Of a DNA stretch of 64,000 nucleotides, positions 27,608-60,985 are shown piece by piece. The notes below the pieces were generated by a model. It saw nothing but the letters and a program-made list of their open reading frames with translations. It had not been told where the DNA came from and ran no database searches. The DNA comes from Leucoraja erinacea. Lineage: Eukaryota. Within the stretch, counting starts at the first letter, position 1, and each line of letters opens with the position of its first letter. The stretch is taken from assembly GCF_028641065.1 (NCBI RefSeq), contig NC_073380.1, forward strand, positions 70,370,001 to 70,434,000. The letters are read 5' to 3'. The translations under genes and the position numbers were made by a program.

Positions 27608-27641
27608 GGCAACGTTTCGGGCCGAAACCCTTCTTCAGACC
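27608..27641 (-). ncRNA. Minimal type I hammerhead ribozyme motif within Penelope terminal unit 27510-27641
   Basis: GGU CUGAAGA A GGGUU UC GGCCC GAAAC GUU|GCC: intact core, stem II, palindromic ACGU stem III, stem I GGU/GCC. Confidence 0.7.
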
Positions 27642-30600
27642 ATTTGGGTGCTGTCTGGGCAGACGACGCTTACAGTCCGAGTGGGGGACACATGGTGGCT
27701 CCAATCCTAGCGATGAGACTCGACTAGCGAGACCGACGTCGCGCAGAGCTATAATGGTGGATGACTCCATTGTCTGAGGTGCGGACATGAGATTCTGTGG
27801 CAGCAGACAAAACTCCCAGATGGTATGTTGCCTCCCTGGTGCCAGGGTTTAAGATATCACAAACCAAATTCAGAACATCCTCGAGAGGGAAGGTGAACAG
27901 CTGGCAGAGTTGTGCACGTGGGCACAAACGATGTCTGGAAGAAGAGGAAGGAGGTTCTGTAACGCAAGTTTGGAGAGTTAGGAAGATGACTGAAAATCAG
28001 GACTTCTAAGGTGGTTATCTCTGGATTGCTTCCCGTACTTCGTGCTAGTGAGGGCAGGGAGATAGGGGATCTGAATGTGTGGCTGGGGGCTGGTGCAGGT
28101 AGCAAGGATTTAGATTTATAGACCACTGGGATCTCTTCTGGGATAGGGGTGACCTATACAAAAAGGACGGGTTACACCTTAACTGGAGTGGAACCGACGT
28201 TCTGGCAGGCAGGTTTGCTAGGGCTACACGTGTGTGTTTAAACTAAATAGTGGGGGGAAGAGATTGACATATTGGGAGTATAAAGATGGAGTTGAAGGGG
28301 AAGTGAGTACAGGAAAAGTTACAAAAGACTCCCAAATTAATCTGAAGGAAAGTTCGAGAAGGGATCAGAGAGTAAGGTCAGAGCCAATAGTAACCGTTTT
28401 GAGAGGGGAGGTGAATACCGAAGTCAAAGTGTTGCATATAAATGCGCGAAGTATAAGAAATAAGTGGATGAGCTTGAGGCTCAGTTAGAAATTGGCAAGT
28501 ATGATGTTGTGGGAATTACAGAGACATGGCTGCAAGAGGGCCAGGGCTGGGAACTGAATATTCAAGGGTATACCTCCTATCGAAAAGACAGATAGGTGGG
28601 CAGAGGGGGTGGGGTAGCTCTGTTGGTGAGGAATGAAATTTAGTCCCTAGCGAGGGGTGACAGAATCAGGAGATGTAGAGTCAGTATGGATAGAACTGAG
28701 GAATTGAAAGGGTAAGAAGACCCTAATGGGAGTTATCTACAGGCCCCCAAACAGCAGCCTGGATATACGGTGCAAGTTGAATCAGGAGTTAAAATTGGCA
28801 AAAGTAGCAAAGGTAACGCTGCAGTTGTTATGGGAGATTTCAACATGCAGGTAGACTGGGAAAATCAGGTTGAAACTGGACCCCAAGAAAGGGAGTTTGT
28901 GAAGTGCCTCCGTGATGGATTCTTAGAGCAGCTTGTACTGGAGCCTACCAAGAAGAAGGCAATTCTGGAATGAACCGTTGATAAGGGAACGCAAGGTAAA
29001 AGGAGCCATTAGGAGGTAGTGACCATAATATAATAAGTTTTAATCTATAATTTGGGAGGGAGAAGGGTAAATCGGAGGTCTCAGTATTACAGTTGAACAA
29101 AGGGGACTATGAAGCCATGAGGGAGGAGTTGGCTAAAGTTGACCGGAAAGATACCCCAGCAGGGTGACAGTGGAATAACAATGGCAGGTATTTCTGGGAA
29201 TAATACAGAAAGGGCAGGATCGGTTCATTCCAAAGAGGAAGAAAGATTCAAAGGGGAGTGAGGAGCGACCATGGCTGACAAGGGAGAGTATAAAAATAAA
29301 AGAGAAGAAATATAACATAGCAAAGATGAGCGGGAAGCCAGAGGATTGGGTAACTTTTAAAGAGCAACAGAAGATAACTAAAAAGGCAACACAGGGAGAA
29401 ATTATGAGGTACAAGCTAGCCAAGAATATAAAGGAGGATAGTAAAAGCTTCTTTAGGTATGTGAAGAGGAAAAAATTAGTTAAGACCAAAGTTGGACCTT
29501 TGAAGACTTAAAAAGGTGAACTTATTATGGGGAACCAGGAAATGGCAAGAATGAACAGGTTCTTTGGATCCTTCTTCACTAAGGAGGACACAATCTTCCT
29601 GATGTACTAGTGGCCAGAGGATCTAGGGTGACAGAGGAACTGAAGGAGTTTCACATTAGGCAGGAAATGATGTTGGGTCGACTGATGGGACTGAAGACTG
29701 ATAAATCCCCAGGGCCTGATGGTCTGCATCCCAGGGTACTTAAGGTACTTAAGTGGCTTTAGAAATCGTGGATGCATTGGTGATCATTTTCCAATGTTCT
29801 ATAGATTCAGGATCAGTTCCTGTGGATTGGAGGGTAGCTAATGTTATCCCACTTTTTAAGAAGGGCGGCAGCGAGAAAGCAGGGAATTATAGACCAGTTA
29901 GCCTGACATCGGTGGTGGGGAAGATGCTGGAGTCAATAATAAAAGATGAAATAACAGCACATTTGGATAGCAGTAGCAAGATCGGTCTGAGTCAGCATGG
30001 ATTTACGAAGGGGAAATCATGCTTGATGAATCTTCTGGAATTTTTTGAGGACGTAGCCAGGATAATGGACAAGGGAGAGCCAATGGATGTACTGTACCTG
30101 GACTTTCGGAAATCATTTGATAAGGTCCCACATAGGAGATTAGTGGGCAAAATTAGAGCATATGGTATTGGGGGTGGGGTGCTGACATGGATAGAAAATT
30201 GGTTGGTAGACAGGAAACAAAGAGTAGGGATTAACGGGTCCCTTTCAGAATGGCAGGCAGTGACTAGTGGGGTACCGCAAGGCTTGGCATTGGGACCGCA
30301 GCTATTTACAATATATATTAATGATTTGGATGACGGATTAAATGTAACATTAGCAAATTTACAGATGACACAAAGCTGGGTGGCAGTGTGAACTGTGAGG
30401 AGGAGGCTATAAGGATGCAGGATGACTTGGACAGGTTGGGTGAGTGGGCAGATGCTTGGCAGTTGAAGTTTAATGTGGATAAATGTGAGGTTATCCACTT
30501 TGGTGGCAAAAGCAGGAAGGCAGATTATTATCTGAATGGTGTCAAGTTAGGAAAAGGGGAAGTACAATGAGATCTGGTTGTCCTTGTTCATCAGTCACTG

Positions 30601-31290
30601 AAAGTAAGCATACAGGTACCTGCTGTACCTGTGAAGAAAGCTAATGGCATGTTGGCCTTCATAACAAGAGGAGTTGAGTATAGGAGCAAAGAGGTCCTCC
30701 TGCAGTTGTACAGGGCCATAGTGAGACCGCACCTGGAATATTGTGTGCAGTTTTGGTCTCCAAACTTGAGGAAGGGCATTCGTGCTATTGAGGGAATGCA
30801 GCGTAGGTTCACAAGGTTAATTCCTGGGATGGCGGGACTGTCATATGTTGATAGATTGGGGCGGCTGGGCTTGTATACTCTGGAATTTAGATGGATGAGA
30901 GGGAATCTTATTGAAACATATAAGATTACTAGGGGTTTGGACACGCTAGAGGCAGGAAACATGTTCCAGATGTTGGGAGAGTCCAGAACCAGGGGCCATA
31001 GTTTAAGAATAAGTGGTAAGCCATTTAGAACGGAGATGAGGAAAAACTTTTTAACACAGAGAATTGTGAGTGTGTGGAATTCTCCGTCTCAGAGGGCAGT
31101 GGAGTCTGGTTCTCTGGATGCTTTCAAGAGAGAGTTTGATAGAGCTCATGGATAGTGGAGTTAAGGGATATGGAGAGAAGGCAGGAACGGGGTACTGATT
31201 GTGGATGATCAGCCATGGTCACATTGAATGATGGCGCTGGCTCGAAGGGCTGAATGGCCTACTCCTGCACCTGTTGTTTATTGTCAATTG
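27642..31290 (+). mobile_element. Long CR1/HER1 LINE: ORF1 esterase (SGNH) remnant, ORF2 APE endonuclease and RT, 3'UTR; disabled
   Basis: RAIMVDDSIV / MVCCLPGARV / YKKDGLHLN (ORF1); [52 protein letters not shown] (ORF2); many stops and frameshifts. Confidence 0.95.
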
Positions 31291-31369
31291 ACACTGGTTT
31301 CACAGAAAAAATCTCTTAGTGATATGCTATTATACATTAGGCATGAGATTTTAGACTTGGCCAATCTCT

Positions 31370-31560
31370 TGAGAACAAAAAAAATAAACTGCTGGAGGAA
31401 CTGAGCAGATTAAATTGTTACTATGGAGGGAAATTATGTTTTGAGTCAAGACCTAGCTTAGACTAAAAGTGGAAGGAAACCAGTATAGAGAGGGGAAGAG
31501 GCAAGATAGGGGTTGGTTGGGGACAGAACCAGGTGGTGAGGAGTGAACGATGGTGGAGAC
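31370..31560 (-). mobile_element. Old Penelope terminal fragment (host of the 7-bp-TSD element)
   Basis: aaactgctggaggaactgagcag...gagtcaagacc, a degenerate copy of the unit. Confidence 0.5.
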
Positions 31561-31566
31561 AGAGGT

Positions 31567-32429: not shown

Positions 32430-32499
32430 CAGAGGTGGATGACCAGAAACACAAAGGCTACGTACTGGAATCTGGCAAGTACCCTTGGCATCCTGCTGA

Positions 32500-32895
32500 T
32501 CACTTTCTTGTCACCCCTCCCTCCCCCTCCCCTCCACCACTTGATGCCACCAACCCCCACCCCTGGCACTCACCTCCCCACCTTCTTTCTCCCCTCCCTT
32601 TTCGGCTTGTTTCCATGTGCCTGTCTCCCAACTCCACATCTTTCCCTCCCCCTCACTTGATTCCTCCTGCCCAGCATTTGTCACTCTTCCATGGGCCTCC
32701 TTCACCGACCGGCCGCTCTCACTCCTCTCCCTCCTTTTTTACACCAGCAATCTTTCCTTTCCACTCTCAGTCCTGATGCAGGGTCTCGACCCGAAACATC
32801 AGCAATTCCTTTACCTTCACAGAAGCTGCTCAACCCACTGAGATATTCCAACCATTCGGGTATTTTTTGCTCCAGATTACAGCATCTAGAGTCTT
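32500..32895 (+). mobile_element. Penelope 3' region (pyrimidine-rich) and terminal unit
   Basis: ctctcagtcctgatgcagggtctcgacccgaaacatc...gctccagattacagcatct. Confidence 0.65.
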
Positions 32896-33349: not shown

Positions 33350-36300
33350 AATATGAACACATGGAATATTTATTTTATAATAGCAGTTATCCATATATTT
33401 GCACAAAATTTCAATTCATACAGATGTTTATTTGTCAATATGGTAATGCACCAAGCACAAGACAATCTAAGGTTATAAATAACAAGTGCGAGGTAAATAA
33501 GAAAATAGATCCAAATAATAGGCTTTAATTAATTGTGGACTTCATACGCTTGGTCCTAGCACAGGTCATGTGACAAGAATAAAAAATAAGACAATTAGAC
33601 CGACAACAATAAGTCCAAACCTAGGAGAAGTGATGTGGAAAAACCATCACTTTTTGGCAGCAATTTCTTCTTCAGATTTAAAGAATCAATCTGATTAATC
33701 CCCAAATCAGATGGTAAAATGGGTCAAACTACCCTAAACTGGAAATGTGAAGAGCTGTGTGATTTAGAGTAGTGCCCAAAATATTCAACTTTGTCATTAC
33801 AGATGTACCTTTTTTATTTTTTGACACTTAGATGTAAACCACTCTGAAATCAATTTCATCGGGCATCATTGCAATGAAAACAACAAAACTCTTCTCTGGC
33901 TCAAAAACAAAACTATAAAATGCCTTTTCATTAAAGTAACATCTTATCAAATACACAAAATTTGTTAAACTTCTAAAGTAATATACAGATTTCATAAAAA
34001 ATAATAGAAATGTATTCATTAGTCTTAAGTAAAATTTGATGTATATATATATTGTAATTTAAGTACAAAAGATTTATCTAAAAGTGAATACAAAAGTTAC
34101 TGAACTTTATGTAATATGTACCATATTTTGTAACACAGAGGATCATAGATGCTACAGCTGAAACAAAGTATAATTGGTAAATAAACTCAAGTAATGTGGA
34201 TACGTTATAAAATTCCTTTGGAGTTGGAAGTGCAGCATTCATTTAAGTTTCATTTCATTTTATCACCACATTACATTTGAATCCTTTTTCCAATATGTCA
34301 AATCGTTTAATTAAAAGCAACTGGATAGGATGCTACAGAAATATGCAGATGAATAAGGTAAATGTCAATATCAGTCGTAAAGGATTCTGCTAAAACTAAC
34401 AGATCAAGTCTCCAAGTGGTACCCACATTATACATCTTATAATAGCATTTCATCAAAAAGTATTACCAATGCCAATTTGGTAAATGTTTTTTTTAAAACA
34501 AGGCATATTTAAACTGAAAGATTGAAATTGGGTATATATGGTATAACATTGTGTCCTGTGCTTTTCTGTGGATCCATTTGCTCTGGAAGCCACAAAATGA
34601 AAATGAACTATTGCAAGAAAACATCATGCTAATTATGCTGTTATGCTAATTCCACAAAGGAACACGAAGCATACCAACTTTGGTGTGCATACATTAACTT
34701 TTTGAGAATATGAATTACTCAATATTGTCTCAGCACCAGATTCATATCTGTTACCCTCCCCCTCCCTAAAAATACAATATGGTAACTTGGAATTGAGCAG
34801 CTTTTGGATGCCTGAATTTCCACATAATCAATTTACTGAAGACATTTAAAGTATTAGAACAGGCAAGTGACTAAACTTAATTATTCCACTTATTGTTACA
34901 ATCATAAATATGGTTGAACGAGACCGATTGAATTAATGAACCCAGACTGATCCCGATCGTCATGCATTGCAGATATCATTGTTTTCTTTGCTTTTGATTT
35001 TTCATGGTTTCATTGTTGTAGTTTAAAATACTTTGTAATAATGATTTTCTATATTTTAGCCAAAGAAACATAATTGCCCTTGTCATTGGTTATAATTGTT
35101 ATTTATCACCTGGCCTTGATTGGACATGTGTGAAGTCTACAACATACTTGGGTATTTTTCAGCTTTACCCTTTGCTACTTTGACACTATGAACAACGGAT
35201 AATTTTCTTATGATGTCATGACTTTTCTACCATTCCACATTAAATGTTTATCAATAATGTGAAGAGGGCAGGAGTTGCAACAAATCCATTGTGATCTAGT
35301 ACCCTAAACTACAGAAGAGTTCACAGTCAAACAGACAGCATTATCTCTTCGGTGTTGAGAGGGGGCATTGAATATGTTTAACTTGTATCCATGTCTAGGA
35401 AAACAAATCCCTTATTCAACAGGCTATTTAATAGAAAACCCCACAAGGAACTGTGTTCTATCTAATTTGAGAGGACCATGATCTGATTAAAAGTGCTTGT
35501 CAGTGGATCAAGCTTGATTGTACATTCACCACTCGAAGCATTGCCGTCATAACTGACCAATCTGTGTTTTGAACACTTGCAGGAGTGACCAGTTTCTGAA
35601 GCTGATATGTGGGAGAGCAGTTACTTAAATTTCTCCACTAAAATATCACGGGAACAACTTGTCTATGGATTAGCAATTCAAAGCCTCAATCAAAGCTTTA
35701 AATTATTAGACAGTTTGATTTTTGGTACATAACTATAGGAAGACCACAGTGATATAGGAGAGTAATGTACTTCCCAGTCATTACAAATGTTCAGTGCTTA
35801 ATAAACCTAAACCAGTGAATTTGTGCTTTTCTTTAACTTAAGAAGTGCAGTTAAGATTAATTTCTGGTGCGTTGTGTTAAATTAGACTCTCGATCAGAGG
35901 TTAACATTCCAATTCTTCACAAATTTTTACAGCCATCTTTTGAAAACAAGTTTTATGCTTATAGGAAAACAGGTTGTTTGCCTGTTAGAGTAACAGCAAG
36001 ATATAGGTACAGTAGGAGGAAGGTAATTAAATTATAGTTTGTAAAACGCTTCAGTAGGCTGAAGCTTAAAAAGGAAAAAAAACTCAAGAGGAATACAATG
36101 GCTGTGAGGTGCCTGCAGACAATCTAATCTCCTTTGCATTGGGATAAGACCAGGCAGCTGCTGCTAATCTCTGCCAAATCTCAGTGTTGTGCTTGCTTCT
36201 GCATTAAAGGGGGGGGAAAAATTGTGTTCATGCCAGAGATTGGCAGATGGGAACAAATGTTTGCCTGCATTGCACACTTGCAAAATCAAGCCGTTCTTAG

Positions 36301-36939
36301 ACAGCTTTCATGTAGTTTTATTTTTAAAAGACCTTCTAGCAAACTCTTACATGTGGTAGTCTCCACATGCCTCTTGCATTAAGAAAGCATCTCCAACAAG
36401 AAATATTCTTCACCAGTTTTCTTTGACCTTTCGGATTTCTGTAGTTGTCTGCCACTGTCCCTCCAAACAATGCAACGTGCATTACACCATTGCAATTAAC
36501 GATCATATCCTTTACTTTTACAAACACAATTTTTGATCCATGGTGCTAATTTATAAGTAATATGCTAATTTGTAGTAAAGTAATTTCTAGCCCTCCATCT
36601 TTAAGAAATGAAGATGTTGTCTTTACTCTCCCACGATGTAAATGATAGGTGTACTGTTTGCAGCTTTCAAGTTTAAACCATTATTTTTGCTTGAAAATGG
36701 GCTATCATTAGCAAAATAAATCTTGCAAATTTTCTACTCATAAATTCAAAAATGATTTTGCAGTCTTAAAAGCCCTTTTCATTAATTCTCAGGAGTAAAT
36801 GTCACAGAATATTTCCTCCTTGCATTCTATTTACATTTGAAGAAACGTCAAGCAACAAATGATTTTAAAGTAGAAGCCTAAATTGTGTCTCAGCAGATAT
36901 TTAGGAGATATAGCAGTCAAACACCAGGATCAGCATGTA
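33350..36939 (-). other. Probable long 3'UTR of the PAG1-like gene
   Basis: About 3.6 kb of AT-rich sequence with no recognisable TE directly after the stop codon. AATAAA on the minus strand at 33374-33369 is followed by GT/T-rich sequence; there is an alternative AATAAA at ~33818-33813. Confidence 0.55.
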
Positions 36940-37284
36940 CTATTTCTGATCCATGTCATGAATGCTTTCATAATCATTCTCTCCTAGGCCGGTGGACTGC
37001 TTTCCAGTAGATTCAGCTTTCTCTTCTGGTGGAACCTCTTTCAGAGCTCTGATGGCTGCATATCCGGGATCAACATCATCTCCTTCCACCACTGCAGATT
37101 CATTCAGGTGTGGGACTTCAGGTACTTCTTCATAGTCAGTAACAGATGCATAAAGATGGTTAGGCGTACATGGATATCTTCCAGGGGTTACTTCATCAAT
37201 GCAGGCGTAACCAGCTTCCTGCTCTGTGTCTGTTTGAAACCATGGCGGTGCTGATTTACTCACAGTGGAGTACATGGCTGCAAT
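36940..37284 (-). CDS. PAG1: PAG1-like last coding exon (Csk-binding IAAMYSTV motif, C-terminal ENDYESI)
   Basis: ttttgccccAG|IAAMYSTVSK...LYASVTDYEE...DPGYAAI...ENDYESIHDMDQK*, matching human ISAMYSSVNK / LYATVKDFE / EPDYEAI / ENDYESISD. Confidence 0.93.
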   Translation of the reverse strand: MAAMYSTVSKSAPPWFQTDTEQEAGYACIDEVTPGRYPCTPNHLYASVTDYEEVPEVPHLNESAVVEGDDVDPGYAAIRALKEVPPEEKAESTGKQSTGLGENDYESIHDMDQK

Positions 37285-37502
37285 CTGGGGCAAAATAATC
37301 ATCCAAATTAAAATTCCAGATGGACAAAAGGAAGACCCATCAATAGATTTCCCCCAACTAGTTGAAGAATACACTCCACTGACGTTGATTGATTAATGGA
37401 ATATTTCAAAGTATAATACACAGCATTCCTCCACATCGTTTGTGCCAATATCATATTCATAACCTCATTTTTCTGATAGCTAAACAGTTAAGCATCATCT
37501 AT

Positions 37503-37635
37503 TGTGGAAGGAGGGTCTCAACCCGAAAACGCCACTCATTCCTTCTATCCAGAGATGCTGCCTGTCCCGCAGAGTTTCTCCAGCATTTGTGTCTATCTTC
37601 AGTGTAAACCAGCACCTGCAGTTCACTCCTACACA
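37503..37635 (+). mobile_element. Penelope terminal unit
   Basis: gggtctcaacccgaaaacgcc...ccagcacctgcagttcactcctacaca. Confidence 0.7.
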
Positions 37636-38958: not shown

Positions 38959-39649
38959 AGGGCCTGTCCCATTTACGTGTCCTTGGTATGCAAATTACAC
39001 GACCTCGTGGTCGCGTTGAAACGCGACAGTCCCGCGAAGGTCGCGCGCGATTTCATGCGTACGCACAGCCGTCTGGAGCGCGTGACGTAATTTGAAGATG
39101 GACACAAAGCTGGAGTAACTCAGCGGGTCCGGCAGCATCTCTGGAGAGAAGCAATGGGTGACGTTTCGTGTAGAGACTCTTCTTCAGTCTGAAAAGGGTC
39201 TTGACCCGAAACATCGCCCATTCCTTTTCTCCAGCGATGCTGCCGGTCCCACTGAGTTACTCTTGCATTTTGTGTCTATCTTCAATATTCTTGCCCTGCT
39301 CTGGGAGTAGGAGTGGGGGCGGATCCAGACTGCAACGGCCGTGAGCCCCAGGCCGAGTTCGGCGATCGTTTGCCTGCTTCTGCTGCTGTTAGAGGTGAGA
39401 CGTTGCATCGCGCCAGGGTCTTGGGCCTGTCCCACTTTGGCCGTCAGTTACACGACAGGCCGTTGGCACGCAAAGATTTAGTTCGCTACAAAAATTTCGG
39501 AGCCCCACGCAATATCGCGCACAACTACATACCCCTCCGCGTTTCTCAGTGGGACCAGCCCCATGCGGCCATACGATACCCGTGCGCCTCAACGCGACCA
39601 CGACGTCGCGTAATTTGCATGCCAAGGACACGTAAGTGGGACAGGCCCT
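38959..39649. mobile_element. PIF/Harbinger MITE (~60-bp TIR, TTA TSD) carrying an inverted pair of Penelope terminal units
   Basis: tta|agggcctgtcccatttacgtgtccttgg ... ccaaggacacgtaagtgggacaggccct|tta; internal palindrome ~39092-39285. Confidence 0.9.
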
Positions 39650-40842: not shown

Positions 40843-40893
40843 TTCAGCTTGTGTCAGTGATGAATCCTCATCTTGAATCTTGCAGTTTTGTGC
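40843..40893 (-). CDS. PAG1: PAG1-like coding exon 5 (51 bp)
   Basis: ttgtgtttctcAG|AQNCKIQDEDSSLTQAE|GTGGGT, similar to human YKSREEDPTLTEEE. Symmetric phase 0. Confidence 0.78.
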
Positions 40894-41459
40894 CTGAGAA
40901 ACACAAGATACCGATTATTATATAAATAAAGATGATAATGAAATGTTATATTCTGTTCAATTTACAATAAATGGATGGCAGAAACTGACAAGTGTTGAAG
41001 TTTGGTTTTGGCATCTTGGTGACCTTTGCCAATGCATTAGTGAACAATATAATAGATAGAACATACACAAGAAAATTCAACCTCTTCAGGAAGCGAATAC
41101 ACAATATATTGTTAACCTGGTACTTGAGAATTAAACAAGCACAGACTATAATGATCAATTTGGGTTTGATTTGCCCAATAAATACAAAGGATACAATTGC
41201 ACAATTAACAGTTTAACTTGTCTTTGTATAAAGGGATATCTCAATCACTTTCAATCACACCCTCATGGCTGGAAGGTAAACAATAAGTGAGGATCTCATT
41301 AGTTTAAAAAGTGAACAGCCACAGGAGAATTTAAAAGTGTCAAATTGAAAACTTATTTCTTTCAGTCTCATGGCTTCTCATAATACAATATTTTCTTTGA
41401 GTTATTTCGCCTGTACTTTAGGTCACCCTCACTGATTCAACAACTTGTTAAGGAACCCA

Positions 41460-41588
41460 TTCGGAAGAAGGTTCTCGACCCGAAACATCACCCATCCCTT
41501 CTCTCCAGAGATGCTGCCTGTCCCGCTGAGTTATTCCAGCATTTTGTGTTCACCTTTTCTCTGGAGATGCTGCCTGTCCCACTGAGAA
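41460..41588 (+). mobile_element. Penelope terminal unit with partial tandem duplication
   Basis: gaagaaggttctcgacccgaaacatcacc; gagatgctgcctgtccc(g/a)ctgag occurs twice. Confidence 0.7.
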
Positions 41589-44230: not shown

Positions 44231-44397
44231 GCCAGGAATGATTCTCTATCAGAAATGTACACTTAGGAATATCAACGTTGTTAGCATATAACTTGTCAAA
44301 AATAATGGCAGTTTTAACATGCATTTTCATGCCAGGCTAAAGTTACATGGTGATTAATACAAAATCACGTGCTGCCCATGCTGTCTCACTTTAATAT

Positions 44398-44493
44398 GGA
44401 CACAAAATATTGTAATAACTCAGCGGAACAGGCAGCATGTCTGGCTAGAAAGAATGGGTGCGTTTCAGGTCGAGACCCCGACCCTTCTTCAGT
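44398..44493 (-). mobile_element. Penelope terminal unit
   Basis: gacacaaaatatt...cgtttcaggtcgagaccccgacccttcttcag. Confidence 0.7.
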
Positions 44494-46560: not shown

Positions 46561-46623
46561 CTGCCTCTGAATCAAAACACATGTTAGCAGCCTGAAACAT
46601 TAGAACACAAAGTGCTGGAGTAA

Positions 46624-47097
46624 AGGGCCTGTCCCACTTGGCCGTCATTTGCGCCTCATTTACGCTTCATATGTAAAATAGGTCAGCGCATTGTGACGCA
46701 CGGCACGGGTAGTAGCGCGGGACAGGCGCATGGAGAGGCGTGGAGGAGTGTGGAGTTGCGTGCGGTATCGCGTGGCGCTCCAGGATTTCGTCCTGTATGA
46801 AATCCTCATGCGCCACCTGCATGACGTATCGCGTACGCACGCTGATGCATTGGCTGATGCATTGGCGTCGCACGCTACATCCCGACGTCTCACGTGTATT
46901 GCGTGGTGACGCATGGTTACGTCACCGTGTGTAACCATGCGTCGCCGCGTGCCGCAGGGTATTCTAATGACGTCACGTGCACCAGATGGCATGATGTCGC
47001 ATGATTTGCGAGCGACGTCACGTGTAACGATGCGTCGACCTATTTTACATATGACACGTAAATGAGGCGCAAATGACAGCCAAGTGGGACAGACCCT
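46624..47097. mobile_element. PIF/Harbinger MITE (~65-bp TIR, TAA TSD) inserted in a Penelope terminal unit (46604-47235)
   Basis: gctggag taa|agggcctgtcccacttggccgtcatttgcgcctc ... gaggcgcaaatgacagccaagtgggacagaccct|taa cttagc. Confidence 0.92.
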
Positions 47098-48133
47098 TAA
47101 CTTAGCAGGTTGGCAGCATCTCTGGAGGACTTGGATAGGCAACGTTTCAGGTTTGGTCCCAGCTTCAGGCCTTGATTTACTCCAGCATTTTGTATTCTAT
47201 GCACGATTTCAGCATCTGCAATTACTTGCATCTCCAACTGGAAACATTAACTGTTTTGCTCTCTACAGATGGTACCTGGCTTCCTGACAATTTCCAACAT
47301 TATTTGATGTCAAATGTCAAGCATCTGAAATGTTTTGAATCTTCTCAGCTCTAGCATCTCTTTCCTTTACTCTGCATTTGTTCTTTACCTTACACTTAAA
47401 TATTTTGCAGCCAGACCATCTGTGATTAATACGCTTACACCCATTGACTGTCAATTGGCACCATCAATGTGTCATCCATTCTCTCCTGTTCTCCATATAC
47501 CTCCTTCAAAGGCACTTCCTTAGTTCTCCCCATCACTCTCCCGCAGCTTAACAACAAAGTCTTTGTTTTCTTAGACCTGATGCAGGGACAATGGCCTGAA
47601 ACAATGGCAGGGATTCTCTCTCCACAGGTTCTGCTTGACATGCTGAGTATTTTCAGTGTTTTGTTTTTATTTATGAAAGCTTACCCGATGAAAGACATGC
47701 AACACTAAACGGAACTAAACTGCATCTCTAAATATTTTAATTTAGGATGTCAGTTTTAAGAGCCACATGTTCAAAACAATTGATCATACAATAAGTTGTC
47801 ATTATTACTTAATATTGAACATGATCACACCACAAAAAAATTGGCAGGCAAACAAGGAGATCTCTTTTTAAAAGCATTTCTGCAAACCCAGAGGAAATTT
47901 GAGCTCCGCAAAGGAAACCTTTAAATAATCTTAGCCAACACCCCTCTTAACTTGGCTTCACATTTAGTAGGTTTATACATGATAACTTCACAGCTCAAGT
48001 TCTTTATTTACAATGTTTCACTTGTAAGATTCAACACAATACTATTACTATCATGGAGGAAACAAAGTTGCAAGATGTATACATGAAAGCAAGGCGCATG
48101 TAACTATAGTAAATGCTAATAAAGGAAATTTAT

Positions 48134-48818: not shown

Positions 48819-49702
48819 AGCCCTTTTTCACGGGGCAACGACGCAAGATGTAGCCAGAGTGGAGTGGTCGTGGTCTAGCACGATATCACACGATATAACG
48901 GGGGTAGAGTAAAGAGTTCCCACTGTACTCGGCAATTCTGTCATTTGTGCGAGTGACTTGTCCGTCTCCCGATCTTTCCCGTTAATCGTGAATGAACATC
49001 GTGGACTGTAGTGTAGTTAATCACGTGGCACAAATGATGTTACTTTGTTGTCACACACTATATTGTTTTTTTTCACCCGAGCTCTTTAATGAGCTGAAGA
49101 ATAATCTGTGTTTCTTTAGACAAACGTTGTTTGGTGTGATCCACGTTCTCTCACTATGTGCAAGAAGTCGTCTTTTTATTTTGTCAAATATGAATAAAGA
49201 CTGTGTCTCACATTGACCGTGATGATTGTGTTATTTCTATCATCTACTGAGAGGTGAATCTTTCAGTCTCCCGAATCTTTCCCCTCGACCGTGAATGAAC
49301 ACCCGTTCCTTCTCTGATGCTGCCTGTAGTCCCGCACGTTGCTCCAAGCAACTGGTTACTCTGTTGTCACACACACTATATTGTTTTTTTTCTCTCTCCG
49401 AGCTCTTTAATGAGCTGAAGAATAATCTGTCTTTTTTTTAGACAAATCTATTTGGTGTGATGCACCTCTCTCTCTCTGTGCAAGAAGTCGTCTTTTTATT
49501 TTGTCAAATATGAATAAAGACTGTGTCTCACATTGACCGTGATGATTGTGTTATTTTATGATCTACTGAGAGGTGAATCTTTCAGTCTGAAGAAGGCTCT
49601 CGACCCGAAACGCTACCCGTTCCTTCTCTCCAGAGATGCTGCCTGTCCCGCTGAGTTGCTCCAAGCAACTGGTGTCTATCTTCAAAGGACTGACCAGGAC
49701 TG

Positions 49703-49748: not shown

Positions 49749-50317
49749 CCTCCCTCTCACACAGGCATGACTGGAGGAACTCCACTGGCCAGGCAGCATT
49801 TACGGAGGGAAATGGACAGGCGACCCATTCTTCAGGCTGCCTTATGTCTCTCTCCCCCCCCTCCCCCCAACTCCCACCCACACACACGAATGCTGGAGAA
49901 ACTCAGCGGGTGCAGCGGGGCCGAAACGTTGTCTATTTCCTTTAGGGGGGGGGGGGGGGTAGAGAGATAAGGCAGCCTGAGGAAAGGCTCGCCTGTCAAT
50001 TTCCCTCCGTAGATGCTGCCAGGCCCGCGGAGTTCCTCCTACCGTTCGCAGGAGTTCCCACGGTAACCGCAAGAGTTACTACGGATATCGCACTGGCCAC
50101 TACGTTCATAAAATGTTGCAATGCTCAACCACAAGTGTACAAGTCACTCTTGGACAAATTCAAACATGTTTGAATTTTCTCCCGAGTACCTAAGTTACAC
50201 GATTACCTGCCGTTAGCGCCACGGTGGTCCACGAATGCCGTACTGTTACCGCACGAGGTTCCCACGATGTTAAACTCTGGTTACCTCTTGCGTCAAGTCA
50301 CCCCGTGAAAAGGGGGT
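48819..50317. mobile_element. Harbinger-like non-autonomous element (~45-bp TIR) with a ~310-bp tandem duplication and Penelope-derived cargo
   Basis: agccctttttcacggggcaacgacgcaagatgtagccagagt vs reverse complement acccccttttcacggggtgacttgacgcaagaggtaaccagagt; duplication 48960-49270 / 49270-49590. Confidence 0.75.
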
Positions 50318-50572: not shown

Positions 50573-51526
50573 GACACAAGTAAATCCTATCAATCCATTT
50601 TTCTCCAGTTGGGAGAGGCAAGTGGATTGCAGGCTTGGATGGACAGATGAGGGGATTGGACAAAGTAGCTGGTAAACACATTTAGAAAACCAACAGCCAA
50701 CTCTACAATGTTATTTGGGATCCAGCCAAAAGGCACATTATAGCAAGATACACATCTCAGGAGAAATAGAATGGACCCATTAGAGGCTGAGAAGAAGCTT
50801 TCCATTATTGTTTGAAAACACTTCAAGTCCATTACTGGAGTTGAGTAGTTATTTCTGTGATAAAATTGATGGAATGACTCGGTCTCGTGATTTTGAACAC
50901 AGGGCTGAATTTTGTTTTTTACTTTGGTTTATAGTATTTAAAAAAAAACCCAAATTGGCATGCTCATGAAACCGAATGCTATTCTCCACAGAAAATACAT
51001 TCAAAAGCCCTGCAAAGAAAGAGGCATGATAAATGAAAGGTAACATTTTCACTGAAATTAGTGTGTGCGAGTGAGTGCATTGAAACACCTGTACAAGTTT
51101 GGAAAGATAATGTCCGTGTAGTTATGGAGTTAGATTCTTTGGATCTCACAGTGTAACTCTGTTTCAGTGTGCAGTGGCATTGGATCTCACTTCAGTGGTC
51201 ACCTTATAAACAGACTTCCCATTTGTGCAGTTCATTGAGAATTTATCAGGCAGGGGTGGAGGTGTGAGCATGCACATGAAACTTTTGAAGGTGCCATGAG
51301 TGGTTGATAAAGCAATTTAAATCAGGAAAGACACACTACTTTAACTGTTGCTCAGTTCAGAAACTATATGAAAAATACTAAGGGTCCCAATAATTTGTGG
51401 ATTCATTGACAGGTCATCGATTGGTGGCCATTCAATGGAGAAGCTGATAGAAACATTATGCTTTTCTCTTTCTAGACAAGGTGGTTGAGAGAGACATTAA
51501 CGGAACTGTTCAAAATCACAAAGATT

Positions 51527-51675
51527 CAAGGTAGACACATAATGCTGGAGTAAGCATCTCTGGATAGAAGGAATGGATGACGTTTCAGGTCGAGACCCTT
51601 CTTCAGACTGAGAGTCAGGGGAGAGGGAGACATAAAGATATGGAAGGGTAAGGTATTGAAAACGAGAGAGCTTTG
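51527..51675 (-). mobile_element. Penelope terminal unit with intact hammerhead core (~51575-51610)
   Basis: Reverse complement cagt CTGAAGA A GGGTC TC GACCT GAAAC GTC atcc. Confidence 0.75.
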
Positions 51676-52459
51676 TCCTACATAAGACTCGGGGCAGTGT
51701 GGGAGAGCAGAAACTGCCCTCAAAAGGCGAAAGGGATCAACACTTGATTGAGGGCCAGAGTGATGTAGAAAAAGTTGTGAGCAGTCATGTTCTAGAATTC
51801 AGTGAATGTGTGATGAAACCAGATTCAATTGCCAACTTTAAAAGAGAATTGGATAGGTATCAGGGAGAAAATCCAATGGAAGAGTGGATAGATGGCTGGA
51901 GGAAAAGGAAAACTAGATAAATACAAAATATTGTTTGTATTGTTTTCTTCTGCGTAACTTCACAGATAACAAATTAAACTATTGTTTCGAGCTTAAATTA
52001 ATTAAGGCAATAATATTGGCCTGTGAGAACAGGATCAAATGAAAAATATTTAGAGGCTATTTTTCCATTTTATTCTTGCTATCAAATATTAATTAGCACA
52101 ATTTTAAAGAAAACTCCTTTTGACATTAATCATTTTTTCCTGTTGATTGCAGTGATTCTTGTTATCTTTTTTTTAAAGCTAAAATCATTCCACACTGATC
52201 AAATTTAATTCAAATTTTATTTGAGAAATTACTCACTTTGCAACCAAAGATAAATAGGTGGTTAGAATTATAAATCGTTGCAGTCTCCTTCGAAACAGAT
52301 TTGAGTCTAACATGACCTTTGAATTCCCTGGAAGTGATAACGCAATTGTAGACTTGATGGGCCGGATGGCCTAATTCTGCTCCTCTCACATGAATTTATT
52401 ACCAATTTGTATACATCCAGTTTGAGTACATACTGCAGTTCCAAATCATACTAAGGACA

Positions 52460-53105
52460 AGTGATAAGATGGTCAAAAAGGCTTTTGGCACATTGGCCTT
52501 CATCAGTCAGAGTATTGAGTATAGAAGTTGGGATGTCATGTTGCAGTTATACAAGACGTTAGTGAGACCACATTTAGAGTATTGTGTGCAGTTCTGGGCA
52601 CCATGTTATAGGAAATATATTATCAAGCTTGAAAGAGTTCAGAGAAGATTTACGAGGATGTTGCCAGGACTAGAGGGTCTGAGCTATAGGGAGAGGTTGA
52701 GTAAGCTGGGACTTTATTCCTTGGAGTGCAGGTGAATGAGGGGTGATCTTATAGAGGTGTATAAAATCATGAGAGGAATAGATCGGGTAGATGCACTGAA
52801 TGCACTGAATCTCTTGCCCAGTGTAGGGGGATCGAGGACCAGAGGACATGGGTTCAAGGTGAAGGGGAAAGGATTTAATAGGAATCTGAGGGGTAACCTT
52901 TTCACACAAAGGGTGGTGGGTGTATGGAACAAGCTGCCAGAAGAGGTAGTTGAGGCTGGGACTATCCCAACATTTGAGAAACAGTTAGACAGGTACACAG
53001 ATAAGACAAGTTTGGAGTGATATCGATCAAGCACAGGCAGGTGAAACTAGTGTAGTTGGCCTGTGTGGGCAAGTTGGGCTGAAAGGCCTGTTTCCACACT
53101 GTATC
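52460..53105 (+). mobile_element. 5'-truncated CR1 LINE (second subfamily, tail shared with HE1)
   Basis: LYKTLVRPHLEYCVQFWAP, RTRGHGFKVKG, VGVWNKLP; tail gggctgaaaggcctgtttccacactgtatc. Confidence 0.92.
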
Positions 53106-53220
53106 AATCTTTGACTCTTTGACTCTCGATGACAGTTTATTAGACCCATGTGCCAAAATATTGGGAGTTTCTGAAATAAAATGTTTCATTGAATTACAAA
53201 CAATAAACAAGGTGGCTCAC

Positions 53221-53723
53221 CTCTGTGTTTTCATCCAGCTGCTTTATCGGAAGTGGTGGAGGATCATCTTCAATAATCAATCTCTGCTCTGTGGAAATAC
53301 TGCGATTCATTTTCACATTGCTTACTGTTGCATATGCTGCAGCCCCATCAGCAAGCTCGTGATTGTGATCGAGTGCCGGGATATCCAAATCCGTGTTGTC
53401 TGCCTGACCATATATTTCATTGGCCACACTGCCGGATTCCTCTTTCAGCTCTTTCACAGTTTCATAGAGAGAGTCTTCGATGATTATGTCCTGAGATGAG
53501 CTGTCCTTTAGCACTTCATAGGTGTTACACACTCCATGCAAGATCTTGACTTCATTCACCTCCGCAGGTTCTGTGCTCAGCAATGAATCATTGCCGGGTA
53601 TTTGAGGCAGTTCTCTACTCTGTGGACATTTTGATGATTTACTCTGTGTATCTTGTTGGTCTGGTTCAACTGGAAGCAATGCATCTTCAGAGGAATTAAT
53701 AATTGTGCTCCGATCTGAAAGAA
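53221..53723 (-). CDS. PAG1: PAG1-like coding exon 4 (503 bp; Tyr motifs YEVL, YETV, YATV; Pro-rich motifs)
   Basis: ORF 53194..53751 contains KCPQSRELPQIP, YEVLKDSSSQD, EDSLYETVKELKE and PPPLPIKQLDEN, which are hallmark PAG1 motifs. Acceptor ctttcatAG at 53725-53724, donor GTGAGC at 53220. Confidence 0.93.
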
Positions 53724-54090
53724 CTATGAAAGTGAAATCATAGAGCAACATGTCTCATTGCAAAACCATTGTTACACTTTTCTTCTCCAAATGCAAAATA
53801 ATCTGATAGTCAACAAACCTGCCAGATTGATGGGAATGAACAATAAATAATCCTTACATGAAAAAAAAACTTTAATATTGAAGAATGACAAGGATAAAAG
53901 AATCAATGATTAAAACAGGATGAGATGTTGATGATTTCCACACATGGAGCAGTTATCCACTTAGAAACTGTTGAGAATCTCCTCACTACAAACCACTTCA
54001 GTAAAAATATTCCAATATGCCCCTGTGTATTTATCATTTCTTCTTCTAACTGATGTTACTTTAGATTGTACATGCTAATTGTAACCTTAC

Positions 54091-56129: not shown

Positions 56130-57050
56130 TTAGGTAATGGGGGATCCTCTCTTTCATCATAAATGAGGCCCTCGCACGTCTCCTCGGTATTCCGCAGCTC
56201 CCTCTGCCAAGTCGCAACAGAGACAGTCCCCCTAGTCCTCCCATATCAAGCATTACATACAGCACATAATCTCCTGACATTTCCGCCACCTGATCCCACC
56301 ACTAGTCACATCTTCCCATCTCTATACTTTCCGCAGAGACTGTTTCCTCCGCATCCCTTTTCATCCCTGCTCACCCAAACCACCCCCTCCCCAGGTACCT
56401 TGTGCTGCTACCGCAGGAGATGCATCACCTGTCCCTATATCTCCATCCAGAGACCCTGACAGCCCTTTCAGGTGAAGCAGAGCTTGCACCTCCTCCAACC
56501 TCTTCTACTGTAATCGCTGTTCCAAGTGTGGACTCCTATATATTGGCGAGACCAAGCGTAGACTGGGCAATCATTTCACTGAACAGTCCACCTTGGCATC
56601 GGTGATCTCCTGGTTGCAAAACACTAACTCCCCTTCCCATACTGACCTTTGTGTCCTGGGCCTTCTCCATTGTCAGAGTGAGGCAGCTTACAGCCCAGCA
56701 GTATGAATATTGATTTCTCAAATTTTAAGTAACCCATGCTTCCCCTCTATCTCCGTCTCTCCCCAACGCTAGTCGTCGTACTAGTTTCACTGTTTTCCTG
56801 ATCAGTTTCACTGCCTGTATAACTCGTTATCACCTACCTCACAGCCAACAGTAGACCATTGTGGGCTGCACCTTTCCTCGATCATCGTTAGTTTTTGCAT
56901 AATTTTAATTCATTCATCCTATCTTTCTTCTGTACCTCCCGTGTCCCTTTCCCCTGACTGTATGAAGAAGGGCCTCAACCCGAAACGTCACCTATTCTTT
57001 TCTCCTGAGATGCTGTCTGACCGGCTGTGTTACTCCAGCTTTTTGTGCCC
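56130..57050 (+). mobile_element. Penelope-like retroelement 3' part: GIY-YIG endonuclease remnant and terminal repeat
   Basis: RCSKCGLLYIGETKRRLGNHFTEQ at 56515-56586; terminal unit tgaagaagggcctcaacccgaaacgtcacc at ~56962-56992. Confidence 0.85.
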
Positions 57051-58129
57051 ATAATCTTTCCTTCTCTGCAAGACGATTACAATGAGGTCGACTCAATTTA
57101 AATGGATCACAAGATTACTAACTTCAGGTTCGGTCACGATGGACAGCACTTATAATCCAGAAACATTTGTTGAACTGCTGGACTTTATTTCACCTTCGGT
57201 CAGGCAAAGTGTTGGGACAACACAATTGCACATAAGCCCCCACACCCCTCTGTCGCCTGGGTGATGAGAGAAGGAAAACAAAGCTCTGAAGTTCCTATTA
57301 CTTTCCAAACAAACCGTTCATTATAGTAGAGAGAAAATATTGATTCTGTGTTATTTCTAACATCACATCAGTTCATTACTCAAAGGAAGTGTAGATCTTA
57401 ATAGGGCAATAAATCATACAAGAAAGGTGGAGGGAGAGAAGGGCAATCTAATCCCTCTTCATTGGCATGTGCATTGTTAAATCTTTTTAAGGACACTATA
57501 CCACTGGTTTTATAGGATTTCTATTTTAACTGGTCATTCTTGGTTCTTGGGAAATTCATCGGGTAAAATGAATGTAGCCTGATTCAATATGCAAGGACCT
57601 TTATAGCACAGCTGGAGGCATTGAGAATAGCTGTACTTTCCTGCTGCTCACATTCCATTCTAACCTACATAATTCCCCCCAAAACAGCATCCACTGGGAT
57701 CAATGGGCATCCCATGATTTCCAATGCAGCACCTTCCCCATCGTATTATTCCTGTGCTTCTGACCTCTTAACTACACTCTTCTCATCCCCACAATATCCA
57801 TTCCCAAGATTGGTTAAATCTGCATCCTTTTCTGGAACTTTGGATCTCATCGAGAGCAGACAGCATCAGAAACTATTGCAACAAGTGATGGCTCCCACTG
57901 ATTGTCGCCGGAAGCTTGCATCCTTTTCAGGACGGACGATGACAGCGATGTCAACATTTGAAACATGGAATATTGACACGAATGAAGAAGACCCATTGAA
58001 CACACCCATCGACGTCATGGAACCTGCAACTCTGCACACTGTCTTCGGGGCCCAACCGAAAGTAGCCACTTACCTAAAATAGTTTGGGAAAAGCACTGGT
58101 CCACAGATAAGACAGTGATTTCAAGCCCT

Positions 58130-60985
58130 TGTCTCCCACTTCTCCTCACCCCATCCCATCCCCCCTCTTCTCCCCAATGTACTCCTGGCAAAACCAAATC
58201 ATTGAAAACAAGATGAATAAACTTAAAATGAGTCTCACCTTCTTTAGGGAACTGAGAGACTGTTGTGTGCTCTGCTTCACAGAGACATGGCTCACACCTG
58301 CTTCATCTGTCTGTGTCATGCAACTCAAAGGCTTCTCACTTCATCTGTTGGACTGTACACCATCATGGGGCAAGGTTAGCGGCTGTTTCCTAGTCAAGTC
58401 ATTGGGCTGGTCAGAAACCACAGTGTAAAGCTTGCCAGAAACTAAGCTTGCCCTGGATGAACTGCTGTGACCAAGAGCCTTGAAACAAAGCACCCCAGGG
58501 CTGCTTTCATAATAGGTGGAGCCTTCCACCAGGCCAACCTCAGGATTGTGTACCAAGATACTGTCAGCTCATCTTCCGTCCCACCAAATGTCCAAACACC
58601 CTCAACCACAGCTATACAACAATCAAAGATACTTCTAGCATGAAATCCTTCACAATTGGTTTTGAGTTGGTGGACATGTTCCTTTACAAAAACTCTGAAG
58701 CCAATCTAAATGAGAACGCCACTGACATCACACACCTCATCAGCAAGTCAATAAAGGAATGCCAATAAAGTCAATATGATTCTTCTCCAAACGGTAACCA
58801 TGGACGAACCACGTCCATTCCCAGGTGAAGTCCAAGTCTGAAGAAGGGTTCCCAACCAAAATGTCATCTGTGCCTTCCCTCCACAGATGCTGCCTGGCCT
58901 GCTGGGTTCCTCCAATAGTTTGTGTTTTGCTCCAGATTCCTGCATCCACATTTCTTGTGTCTCCGAGGTCTATGTCTGCAGTGTTCAAGTCGATTGATCC
59001 CAAATTATGATCTCCGCAAAGCCGTCAAGGTTGGCGAGAGGGAGCTCTGGACAAAGCTAGATTCCCAGGATAACCACATGGACTACCATCAATTGTGGCA
59101 AGGTTTTCACAGCATAACGGTGACAAAGTGAAGCAGTATCACCGACAACTCAATGCATTCTATGCTCGCATTGAACAGAAGGTCACTGCAATGAAACAAC
59201 CTGCCCAGAGACCCCGTGGTGCACATAAACCCATGGTCACTGGTGTCAGACCAGCCTTCCTGAAAGTGAACCCAAGATAACAACTGGACTGGATGAAGTC
59301 CCAGGACCTGCTCAGACCATATTCACAGACATGGTTAACCTCTTCCTAATTTATTCTGAGTTCCTACCTGCTTTAAGAACACCACTATCAACCTGACACC
59401 AATGAAGAGCAAGGTTGTGGCCTTAATGACCACTGTCAGAGGCTCTGACGTCCACTATCATAAAATGCTTTGAGAGGCCGGTGTGACACAAACTCCCGCC
59501 TTCCAGAAAGCTTCTTCCACTGCCTTTTGCCTACTGTTGGAACAGGTCCATGGCAGACGTCATCTCTCTAGTCCTGCGCTCATTGCTGGAACATATAGAT
59601 AACATATAGACAGACATCTGCAGTAGACTATAGATTGCTTGTAGCTATGCCGTCAACATCATATTGCCAAGAAAATGCATCTCCCCAACCTCTCAGACAT
59701 AGTAGACAGTACCTCCCTCTTCCACTAGATCCTTGACTTCCTGTTCGAAAGAAAACTACAACCAGTACGAATTTCCAAAAAAATGTCCTCCACAATAATT
59801 CTCAACACATACAGATGCATTCAGCCCCTTATACACTCAGCACTATGCAGCCAAATTCTGATCTATTTCATTTCAAGCTTGCAGGTGACATAATTATAGT
59901 GGGCCAGATAGCAAACAATGGTGAGATACTACAGGAAAGAGAGTGTGTTTAGTAACATGGTGTCAAGATAACAACCTGCCCATCAATGTCAGCAAGGAGC
60001 TAATTATTGACTTCATCGTCAATGGTACTAAAGTGGAGATGGTGGGTAGCTTCAAGTTCCGAAGGATAAATATCACCAGCAACATGTCCTGGACCTAGCA
60101 CATTGAAGCTATGGCGAAGAAGACACATCGGAACCTCTACTTCCTCAGAAAACAAAAGGAAGCTCAGCATGTCCACACTGACACCTACCAATTTCTGCAG
60201 ATGCACCATAAAAATCATACTATCAGAAAGCATCACAGCTTGGTTTGGAATATCTCTGCCCAAGCCCACAAGAAATCACACTCATGGATGTATCCCAGTC
60301 CATCACACAGACCAGCCTCCCCACCATTGATCACATCTACATTTCTCGCAGCCTTGGGAAAGCAGCCAACAAATGAAGGACCTTTTTCACATCAGTCATT
60401 CCCAACTCTCCGAAGATAGACAGGGAATGCTGGAGTAATTCAGCAGGACAGGCAGCATCTCAGTAGAGAAGGAATGGGTGACGTTTCGGTAGAGACCTTT
60501 CTTCAGACCGAAGAAGGGTCTCAACCCGAAACGCTACTCATTCTTTCTCTTCACAGATGCTGCCTGTTCCACTGAGTTATTCCAGCATTTTGTGTCTATC
60601 GTCAGTTTAAATCAGCATCTGCAGTTCCTTCCTACACATTCCCTCTCCAGTCAGGCAGAGGATACAAAAGCTTAAAAGTTTGTATCACCAAATACCGGAA
60701 CTATTTCTTCCTTGCTGTCATCAGATTACTGAATGGTCCTCCCATAAACTAGGCTGCAGTCCCGAACTTTCAACCTGCCTCATTGCAGATCTTTCTCCGC
60801 AACTGTAAAACTATTGCTTTAATATTACATTCTACACTCTGGTATTTTTCTCTTTGCACTGCCTGTTGTAATTGTGTGCAGCTTGATTGTACTCTTGCAG
60901 AGCATAATTCGATTTGACTGGATCACAAGCAAACAAAAGCTTTTCACTGTGTCTCAGTCCATGTGACAATAATAAACCAATACTA
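58130..60985 (+). mobile_element. Degenerate long Rex1-like LINE with two Penelope-unit insertions (58836-58965, 60413-60638)
   Basis: RELRDCCVLCFTETWL, QLNAFYARIEQ, NFCRCTIKIILSESITAWFG; tail aaaagcttttcactgt...tgtgacaataataaacc. Confidence 0.8.
60477..60509 (-). ncRNA. Minimal hammerhead ribozyme motif in an inverted Penelope-unit pair (60413-60638)
   Basis: GGU CUGAAGA AA GGU CUCU ACC GAAAC GUC|ACC; stem I GGU/ACC is perfect. Confidence 0.65.

What the first reader, a model, noticed from the sequence alone, without database searches (positions are those of the whole stretch)
27608..60638. Dense field of minimal hammerhead ribozyme motifs carried by Penelope terminal repeats, several sense-oriented in the adaptor gene's introns
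Seen: a ~100-bp unit recurs more than 15 times in the window and contains CTGAAGA-a-GGGTC-TC-GACCC-GAAACGTC. The unit ends the GIY-YIG Penelope copy at 56130-57050. Variant copies keep the pairing, for example GGGUU/GGCCC with GGU/GCC at 27608-27641 and GGU/ACC at 60477-60509. Known: Penelope-like elements carry minimal type I hammerheads whose palindromic stem III suggests dimer-dependent cleavage. Inference: minus-strand copies at ~39160, ~44460, ~51575 and 60477 lie in one pre-mRNA and could dimerise in cis to cut introns co-transcriptionally.
Basis: partly seen in the sequence, partly recalled or inferred. Interest (0 to 1): 0.7.

Follow-up and report, generated by a model that had tools for sequence, protein, structure and literature searches.

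The report
Decayed Penelope ends with minimal hammerheads
The ~100-base repeats in the introns of this PAG1 gene are leftover ends of a very abundant, known kind of jumping gene; they carry a known miniature self-cutting RNA motif that is damaged or predicted to be folded shut in every copy facing the same way as the gene, so they likely do not cut its RNA.

Summary
The repeat is real: 18 window copies span a minimal hammerhead motif. They are terminal-repeat stubs of a Neptune-type Penelope element (RT, zinc-finger linker, GIY-YIG). The window is not a dense field: 1 copy per 3.6 kb against 1 per 3.8 kb in 1.6 Mb of other gene bodies, with 39,626 intact-pattern cores genome-wide. The intron-cutting idea is not supported. 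None of the 5 sense copies in PAG1 introns passes a hammerhead descriptor, and two are arms of fold-back pairs predicted to bury the core. The only intact copy (27608-27641) lies about 5.7 kb past the mRNA end. In other genes intact cores are not depleted on the sense strand (26 against 16), and the core decays as fast as the tail (8.9% against 8.5%). The core is invariant between subfamilies, so it was likely selected in the transposon, not in the host. Of some interest: copy ends record the insertion process. This scan has reported the same family on other DNA several times.

The parts
56130..57058 (+). 5'-truncated, frameshifted Neptune-type Penelope copy: zinc-finger linker and GIY-YIG remnant, 3' UTR, terminal unit with hammerhead motif (C3>A); antisense to PAG1
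   Evidence: start approximate (homology seen from 56150)
27539..27641 (-). Stub with the only descriptor-intact minimal hammerhead in the window (27608-27641); about 5.7 kb beyond the PAG1 mRNA 3' end
39090..39286 (.). Head-to-head pair centred on TCAG-N-CTGA; minus arm (sense to PAG1) has all core letters but a broken helix II and no helix I; predicted long hairpin
44391..44492 (-). Sense stub with insertion in helix II, C11.1>U and loss of U16.1
47098..47170 (-). Older sense stub, A9>C and C11.1>U
51523..51614 (-). Sense stub, G10.1-U11.1, 2-bp helix I, deletion in the tail
60410..60606 (.). Head-to-head pair; minus arm (sense to PAG1) has a 3-bp helix II behind a 2-nt bulge; predicted long hairpin
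32769..32863 (+). Stub, two core changes
37506..37603 (+). Antisense intronic stub with long tail, four core changes or losses
41457..41586 (+). Antisense intronic stub with a partial tandem piece, two core changes
47593..47671 (+). Old antisense stub, three core changes
49578..49687 (+). Antisense intronic stub, U16.1>C
58835..58927 (+). Antisense intronic stub, G12>A and C15.2>U
23185..23288 (-). Stub outside the finding's range, two core changes
23958..24058 (-). Stub outside the finding's range, two core changes
14391..14496 (+). Stub outside the finding's range, two core changes
61892..62023 (-). PAG1 exon region encoding the transmembrane segment (host gene)
53220..53724 (-). PAG1 large coding exon (host gene)
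40843..40892 (-). PAG1 small coding exon (host gene)
33400..37284 (-). PAG1 last exon, stop codon at 36943-36945, 3' UTR to about 33.4 kb
   Evidence: 3' end approximate

Best explanation
The units are 100- to 135-base terminal-repeat stubs of an abundant Neptune-type Penelope retroelement, carrying its minimal hammerhead motif, and in PAG1 introns they are likely inert passengers that decay neutrally. Shown: the motif sits about 110 nt behind the stop codon of an RT plus GIY-YIG frame and, in one locus, also in front of the element body; stubs end at two positions about 35 nt apart; about a third are head-to-head pairs. Inferred: the element's protein starts reverse transcription at two sites downstream of the motif on uncleaved RNA, as shown for the anole element (PMC11167929); most copies stop at or just before the motif; selection kept the core intact only in the transposing lineage, where tandem repeats or the bound protein would help it fold.
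For: Element anatomy: RVT_1 E=1.2e-5 and GIY-YIG E=0.0066 in a 686-aa frame, both under Pfam's cut-off; GIY-YIG over the cut-off in a 307-aa frame that is 66% identical to the window fragment; upstream unit running into the element body in L253. Abundance: 15,042 exact 28-mers; 39,626 intact-pattern cores, 0 for the reversed control; 1.2 expected per 64 kb and 1 seen. Neutral decay in 215 of 509 aligned copies (those with an intact 5' edge): core non-CpG 205 of 2315 against tail 435 of 5093 (p=0.66); catalytic G12 in a CpG 43 of 211 against tail CpG 49 of 211 (p=0.56). Selection in the source: 0 of 15 core columns against 21 of 66 tail columns differ among five subfamily majorities (p=0.009). 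No strand depletion in 17 gene bodies: 217 sense and 205 antisense units; 26 and 16 intact cores (95% interval for the sense share 0.46-0.76). Spliced PAG1 mRNA across the two mapped stub-bearing introns is seen in 3 of 4 runs laid. No significant pile-up of 5' ends at the predicted cleavage site: 11 against about 8 expected among 376 solo copies.
Against: Sense copies are slightly better kept than antisense at core positions (186 of 1588 against 220 of 1572, p=0.056; the tail shows the same direction). More copies have a fully intact core than independent decay predicts (46 against 26 of 215), which age differences would explain because core and tail divergence correlate (rho 0.31). The LINE control also shows no strand bias (110 against 105), so this sample cannot see weak selection. 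42 intact cores give limited power. Folding predictions are equilibrium models. The RNA libraries looked unstranded and cannot show cleavage ends.
Confidence: 0.88

Rival explanations
1. Sense copies in PAG1 pre-mRNA would pair in cis through their ACGU palindromes and cut introns during transcription, with half-damaged copies complementing each other.
For: The four copies are intronic and sense. 39160, 51575 and 60477 keep ACGUC. Dimers of such motifs cleave weakly in vitro (PMC4209133).
Against: 0 of 5 sense intronic copies are intact. Two are predicted in hairpins of -203 and -182 kcal/mol for the 440-nt context. Partners are 5-9 kb apart; the ACGU duplex is worth -1.7 kcal/mol and helix I is 2 bp in the family. 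Cofolding gave non-hammerhead duplexes. No sense depletion. The anole motif needed the element's protein and no RNA-seq ends were found at its site (PMC11167929).
Confidence: 0.03
2. The tens of thousands of intact cores elsewhere in the genome would cut host transcripts at a low rate when the element's protein is present (for example in the germ line), too weakly to leave a strand bias.
For: 39,626 intact-pattern cores; protein-assisted cleavage is reported for the anole element (PMC11167929); the family is plentiful in poly(A) RNA reads.
Against: No depletion on the sense strand; neighbouring intact same-strand cores were at least 2.2 kb apart in 28 of 28 intervals; 9 of 42 intact cores are in fold-back pairs.
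Confidence: 0.07
3. The units are an independent short non-autonomous element (SINE-like or retrozyme) with its own transcript, not stubs of the Penelope element.
For: 101 of 178 solo copies with a locatable C3 begin within about 6 nt upstream of it, giving a uniform size.
Against: 77 of the 178 run on upstream in sequence shared with other copies, and long copies join the unit to the RT-GIY-YIG frame. Only 15 of 389 same-strand neighbours lie within 300 nt, so there are no tandem arrays. The two 3' ends match the Penelope tail.
Confidence: 0.05

Closest known systems
Minimal type I hammerheads (min-HHR) in pLTRs of metazoan Penelope-like elements (Cervera and De la Pena 2014, PMC4209133; parts 1-2 of 4 read)
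   Same: CUGANGA, one extra base before helix II, G10.1-C11.1, GAAA, palindromic 15.2-16.2 with no loop 3; most copies solitary and truncated; found in Neptune elements of fishes.
   Different: Helix II is 5 bp and helix I only 2 bp here, against 7-8 and 4-5 bp for the Schistosoma motifs there (a 2-bp helix I is reported for D. virilis). The count of 39,626 exceeds the 4,000 and 9,000 called remarkable there, though counted with a different descriptor.
EN+ Penelope-like elements, Neptune clade (Craig et al. 2021, PMC8557442; passages read)
   Same: RT, CX2-5CxxC linker and C-terminal GIY-YIG; heavy 5' truncation; inverted 5'-truncated copies; 30-40 bp tail at only one end of the insertion.
   Different: Clade was assigned from motif order, not from a tree. 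The passages read do not map inversion junctions to the ribozyme's palindromes.
Poseidon element of the green anole, PAc (Frangieh et al. 2024, PMC11167929; parts 1-2 of 4 read)
   Same: Two reverse-transcription start sites downstream of the hammerhead that set the genomic ends; uncleaved RNA as template.
   Different: Different clade; there the frame starts inside the ribozyme, here the first ATG of the upstream frame in L253 lies about 160 nt after the motif. No biochemistry here.
Non-LTR retrozymes (bioRxiv 10.64898/2026.07.22.740005; passages read)
   Same: Hammerhead-bearing derivatives of pLTRs in vertebrates; one chondrichthyan was sampled.
   Different: Those are tandem arrays and are reported as under-represented in introns; these are dispersed stubs and fold-back pairs with no strand bias.

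Membership tests
Metazoan PLE min-HHR | Core CUGANGA ... GAAA ... NUH with G10.1-C11.1 and an extra base before helix II | tested here: met
   All subfamily majorities; 1 of 18 window copies fully intact
Metazoan PLE min-HHR | Palindromic 15.2-16.2, no loop 3 | tested here: met
   ACGU in all subfamily majorities
Metazoan PLE min-HHR | Helix I of several base pairs | tested here: inconclusive
   Only 2 bp in the family; 5 of 60 intact cores reach 3 bp. Shorter than most cases in PMC4209133, equal to D. virilis
Metazoan PLE min-HHR | Compensatory changes in the helices | tested here: inconclusive
   Three pairing-compatible one-sided changes, no two-sided change among five subfamilies; the subfamilies are close
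Metazoan PLE min-HHR | Located in the pLTR of a Penelope element | tested here: met
   About 110 nt after the stop codon in 7 of 10 long loci, a little further in an inverted duplication in 1, absent in 1 truncated locus, 1 with the frame broken before its end; upstream of the body in L253
Metazoan PLE min-HHR | Self-cleavage as a dimer or with protein help | not testable with these tools
   No assay; RNA libraries cannot show cleavage ends
Rfam hammerhead families | Match to a curated model | tested here: not met
   0 hammerhead matches among 4 hits at E<=1
Neptune-clade EN+ PLE | RT domain with DKG motif | tested here: met
   RVT_1 E=1.2e-5, below the curated cut-off; ADKGG and YIDD in the frame. 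Not present in the truncated window copy
Neptune-clade EN+ PLE | C-terminal GIY-YIG endonuclease | tested here: met
Neptune-clade EN+ PLE | CX2-5CxxC linker between RT and endonuclease | tested here: met
   CNRKKCNTC in L226; CYRRRCITC in a shifted frame of the window copy. The linker is shared with Nematis (PMC8557442)
Neptune-clade EN+ PLE | Inverted 5'-truncated copies and one-sided 30-40 bp tail | tested here: met
   107 head-to-head against 4 tail-to-tail pairs; 74 of 107 pairs have one long and one short end
Neptune-clade EN+ PLE | Placement in the Neptune group by RT phylogeny | not tested
   No reference sequences were fetched
Non-LTR retrozyme | Tandem arrays of hammerhead-bearing monomers | tested here: not met
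   15 of 389 same-strand neighbours within 300 nt; median 4.3 kb

The most novel reading that the evidence does not exclude
The stubs are a genomic record of how Penelope elements insert. Many are run-off copies of the 5' end of a transcript that starts at the ribozyme's edge (TCAGTCT, initiator-like), like retroviral strong-stop DNA. Inverted pairs come from two reverse-transcription events, one from each start site, joined at the ribozyme's own palindromes. In support, 26 of 65 abutting pairs are centred on a palindrome of the motif, and the centre moves with the subfamily sequence: 7 of 7 at the helix II loop lack the subfamily 4 variant, and 8 of 8 at +17 carry it. The hammerhead region would then shape integration as a DNA structure whether or not it cleaves.
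Probability: 0.3. Interest if true: 0.5.

Novelty: new member of a known kind. Interest (0 to 1): 0.17.

Why it matters
As found, it matters little: it is a known ribozyme motif on a known retroelement, decaying in introns. The negative result is useful, because about 40,000 intact-looking cores appear to be tolerated on either strand of genes, which fits very low activity without the element's protein. The regular ends of several hundred thousand stubs (about 580,000 by extrapolation from gene bodies) give a large natural data set for the open question of how Penelope elements make tails and inverted repeats.

Tried and rejected
Rfam scan: no hammerhead match; the miRNA hits at 49817-49995 come from a fold-back repeat. 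PDB sequence search with the 686-aa frame: 0 matches. Run search: no RNA holder listed on record; runs added by species label were laid instead. Read laying cannot place repeat-derived reads and showed no listed pile-up of ends at a cleavage site; this is not counted as evidence. Fossil of cleavage as 5' ends at +28: not significant. Cap-derived G at the 5' junction, a lead from e1-9533551: G excess in 24 of 42 unpaired truncated copies and 41 of 100 at position -4 (hand tally, p=0.002); at -3, 51 of 100, but 35 of these are GGGT, which self-derived junctions can give, and without them there is no excess (16 of 65; hand tally). The result is suggestive only. The polypyrimidine-CAG before the motif looks like a 3' splice site, but truncated copies share no common upstream exon, so a spliced template was rejected. 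The extension histogram was confounded by inverted partners and was replaced. Lunse et al. was not held; it is known here only through the review PMC6765202 (passages). Literature searches: 'hammerhead ribozyme' + 'cartilaginous fish' + 'Penelope' gave 0 papers; 'Penelope-like' + 'inverted' + 'template switch' + 'microhomology' gave 1 general review, listing only; 'Penelope' + 'skate' + 'shark' + 'repeat' gave 4, listings only. No supplements were read; those of PMC4209133 may list cartilaginous-fish motifs.
Full report
Setting. The window is G000:C4:70370001-70434000 of a 2.19-Gb genome, likely a skate or ray (inferred from the repeats, from recall, and from earlier notes). The host gene is PAG1 on the minus strand: Pfam PAG matches at 36943-37392 and 53197-53754 and at 61892-62023. 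RNA reads give splice joints 37284/40843 and 40892/53220 in 3 of 4 runs laid. Unique coverage of the last exon ends near 33.4 kb.

Observation. A profile built from seven window copies finds 30 hits at E<=1 and 25 at E<=1e-3; 18 span the motif. The quoted 28-mer has 9 matches at up to 3 mismatches, none exact, against 0 in shuffles. The density is ordinary for this genome: 422 near-full units in 1.6 Mb from 17 gene bodies, 15,042 exact 28-mers and 39,626 intact-pattern cores. That rate predicts 1.2 intact cores per window; 1 is seen. Rfam has no hammerhead match.

What the unit is. The copy at about 56130-57058 holds a frameshifted zinc-finger linker and GIY-YIG remnant, 66% identical over 73 residues to a frame that passes the Pfam GIY-YIG cut-off. 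Longer relatives carry RT, linker and GIY-YIG in one 686-aa frame, with the motif about 110 nt after the stop. In L253 a unit lies upstream and runs through its tail into the element body. Stubs end at two positions about 35 nt apart. There are 107 head-to-head pairs and 4 tail-to-tail pairs; 74 of the 107 have one long and one short end. This is the architecture described for EN+ Penelope elements, including the one-sided tail (PMC8557442, passages), and the two ends match the two internal start sites of the anole element (PMC11167929, parts 1-2 of 4). The motif fits the published minimal hammerhead (PMC4209133, parts 1-2 of 4), with a 5-bp helix II and a helix I of only 2 bp.

State of the PAG1 copies. 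Of the 18 motif-spanning copies, 13 are intronic: 5 sense and 8 antisense. None of the 5 passes a descriptor asking for the core, G10.1-C11.1, helix II of 4 bp or more, the palindrome and 2 bp of helix I. 39160 has two mismatches in helix II and no helix I. 44460 lacks U16.1. 47098 has A9>C. 51575 has G10.1-U11.1. 60477 has a 3-bp helix II behind two extra bases. 39160 and 60477 are arms of inverted pairs, and in pre-mRNA context most of the core is predicted to be paired to the partner arm. The only intact copy, 27608-27641, lies about 5.7 kb beyond the mRNA end; it could be in read-through RNA only. The ACGU duplex that would hold a dimer is worth -1.7 kcal/mol, and the proposed partners are 5.3, 7.1 and 8.9 kb apart.

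Selection tests. Gene bodies were oriented from runs of same-strand spectrin-repeat or fn3 exon matches; the genes were not named or annotated, and one gene supplies 400 of the 1,600 kb. Units are 217 sense and 205 antisense. Intact cores are 26 and 16 (p=0.16), with 0 in the reversed-sequence control. Among 509 aligned copies, the 215 with an intact 5' edge show core changes at 8.9% against 8.5% in 24 invariant tail columns, and G12, which sits in a CpG, decays like the tail CpG (20% against 23%). In contrast, subfamilies clustered on the tail alone share an invariant core (0 of 15 columns vary, against 21 of 66; a cluster of 14 copies with a deletion was left out of that count). So the core was likely constrained in the transposing lineage and released after insertion. 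Against this reading: sense copies are marginally better kept (p=0.056), intact cores exceed the independence expectation (46 against 26, likely from age spread), and a LINE control is also unbiased (110 against 105), so weak selection would be missed.

The claimed covariation. The subfamily differences are C-G to U-G and U-A to U-G in helix II, U-A to U-G in helix I, a loop change and GUC to GUU. All keep pairing, none is two-sided. The third helix I pair is not inherited: the family has CAGU, and G at -3 appears mostly in copies whose 5' junction lies there (15 of 65 truncated against 2 of 64 extended copies with GT).

What the ends record. 101 of 178 solo copies with a locatable C3 begin within about 6 nt of it. 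Penelope of D. virilis has an internal promoter (PMC2377424, passages), so a transcription start at this edge is plausible; evidence for a cap-derived G is mixed. Of 107 pairs, 94 had arms of 45 nt or more, 83 of these 94 have both arms from one subfamily (21% expected), and 65 abut. 26 of the 65 are centred on a palindrome of the motif: 11 at -1, 7 at the helix II loop and 8 at +17, the last two splitting by subfamily (p=1.6e-4). Some +17 cases may be inflated by the motif's self-complementarity, and changes after insertion were not excluded. Both window pairs are centred at -1. I did not find this mapping in print in the searches, which cover open-access papers only; earlier notes of this scan already remark on the regular ends.

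Verdict. A real and correctly named motif on a known kind of retroelement; the proposed effect on PAG1 is unlikely. Interest 0.17.

Noticed in passing
G000 gene-body sample L051-L210: Junctions of head-to-head pairs pile up at the motif's own palindromes and shift with the subfamily sequence; 74 of 107 pairs have one long and one short tail end.
   Followed up: partly
window 26749-27777 (+): 342-aa open frame, helical, with no Pfam match over cut-off; possibly a mobile-element remnant. The intact stub at 27539-27641 lies inside its 3' part on the other strand.
   Followed up: no
window 11670-12618 (-): Broken Tc1/mariner-type transposase (DDE_3, E=2.4e-12).
   Followed up: no
window 49768-50039: Fold-back structure of nested tail fragments with C and G runs; source of the sub-threshold Rfam miRNA hits.
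   Followed up: partly
window 46604-46697 and 47024-47195: Inverted 79-nt arms 326 nt apart, flanked by pieces of the unit; may be a small non-autonomous element.
   Followed up: no
window 51588, run X21: 150 single-cell reads carry what looks like a template-switch oligo (recognised from recall) joined at the helix II complement; likely a library artefact from copies elsewhere.
   Followed up: no
window 4324-5019, 6779-7240, 30571-31155, 42831-43271, 52394-52735: Several LINE-like 3' fragments (label from recall); one was used as a strand control, 110 sense and 105 antisense.
   Followed up: partly
window 27539-27640: This subfamily is plentiful in poly(A) RNA reads (about 750 reads at 27602 in run X23) and appears to be among the youngest; the reads come from many loci.
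   Followed up: no
window 22300-22810: 500-nt G-rich low-complexity tract.
   Followed up: no
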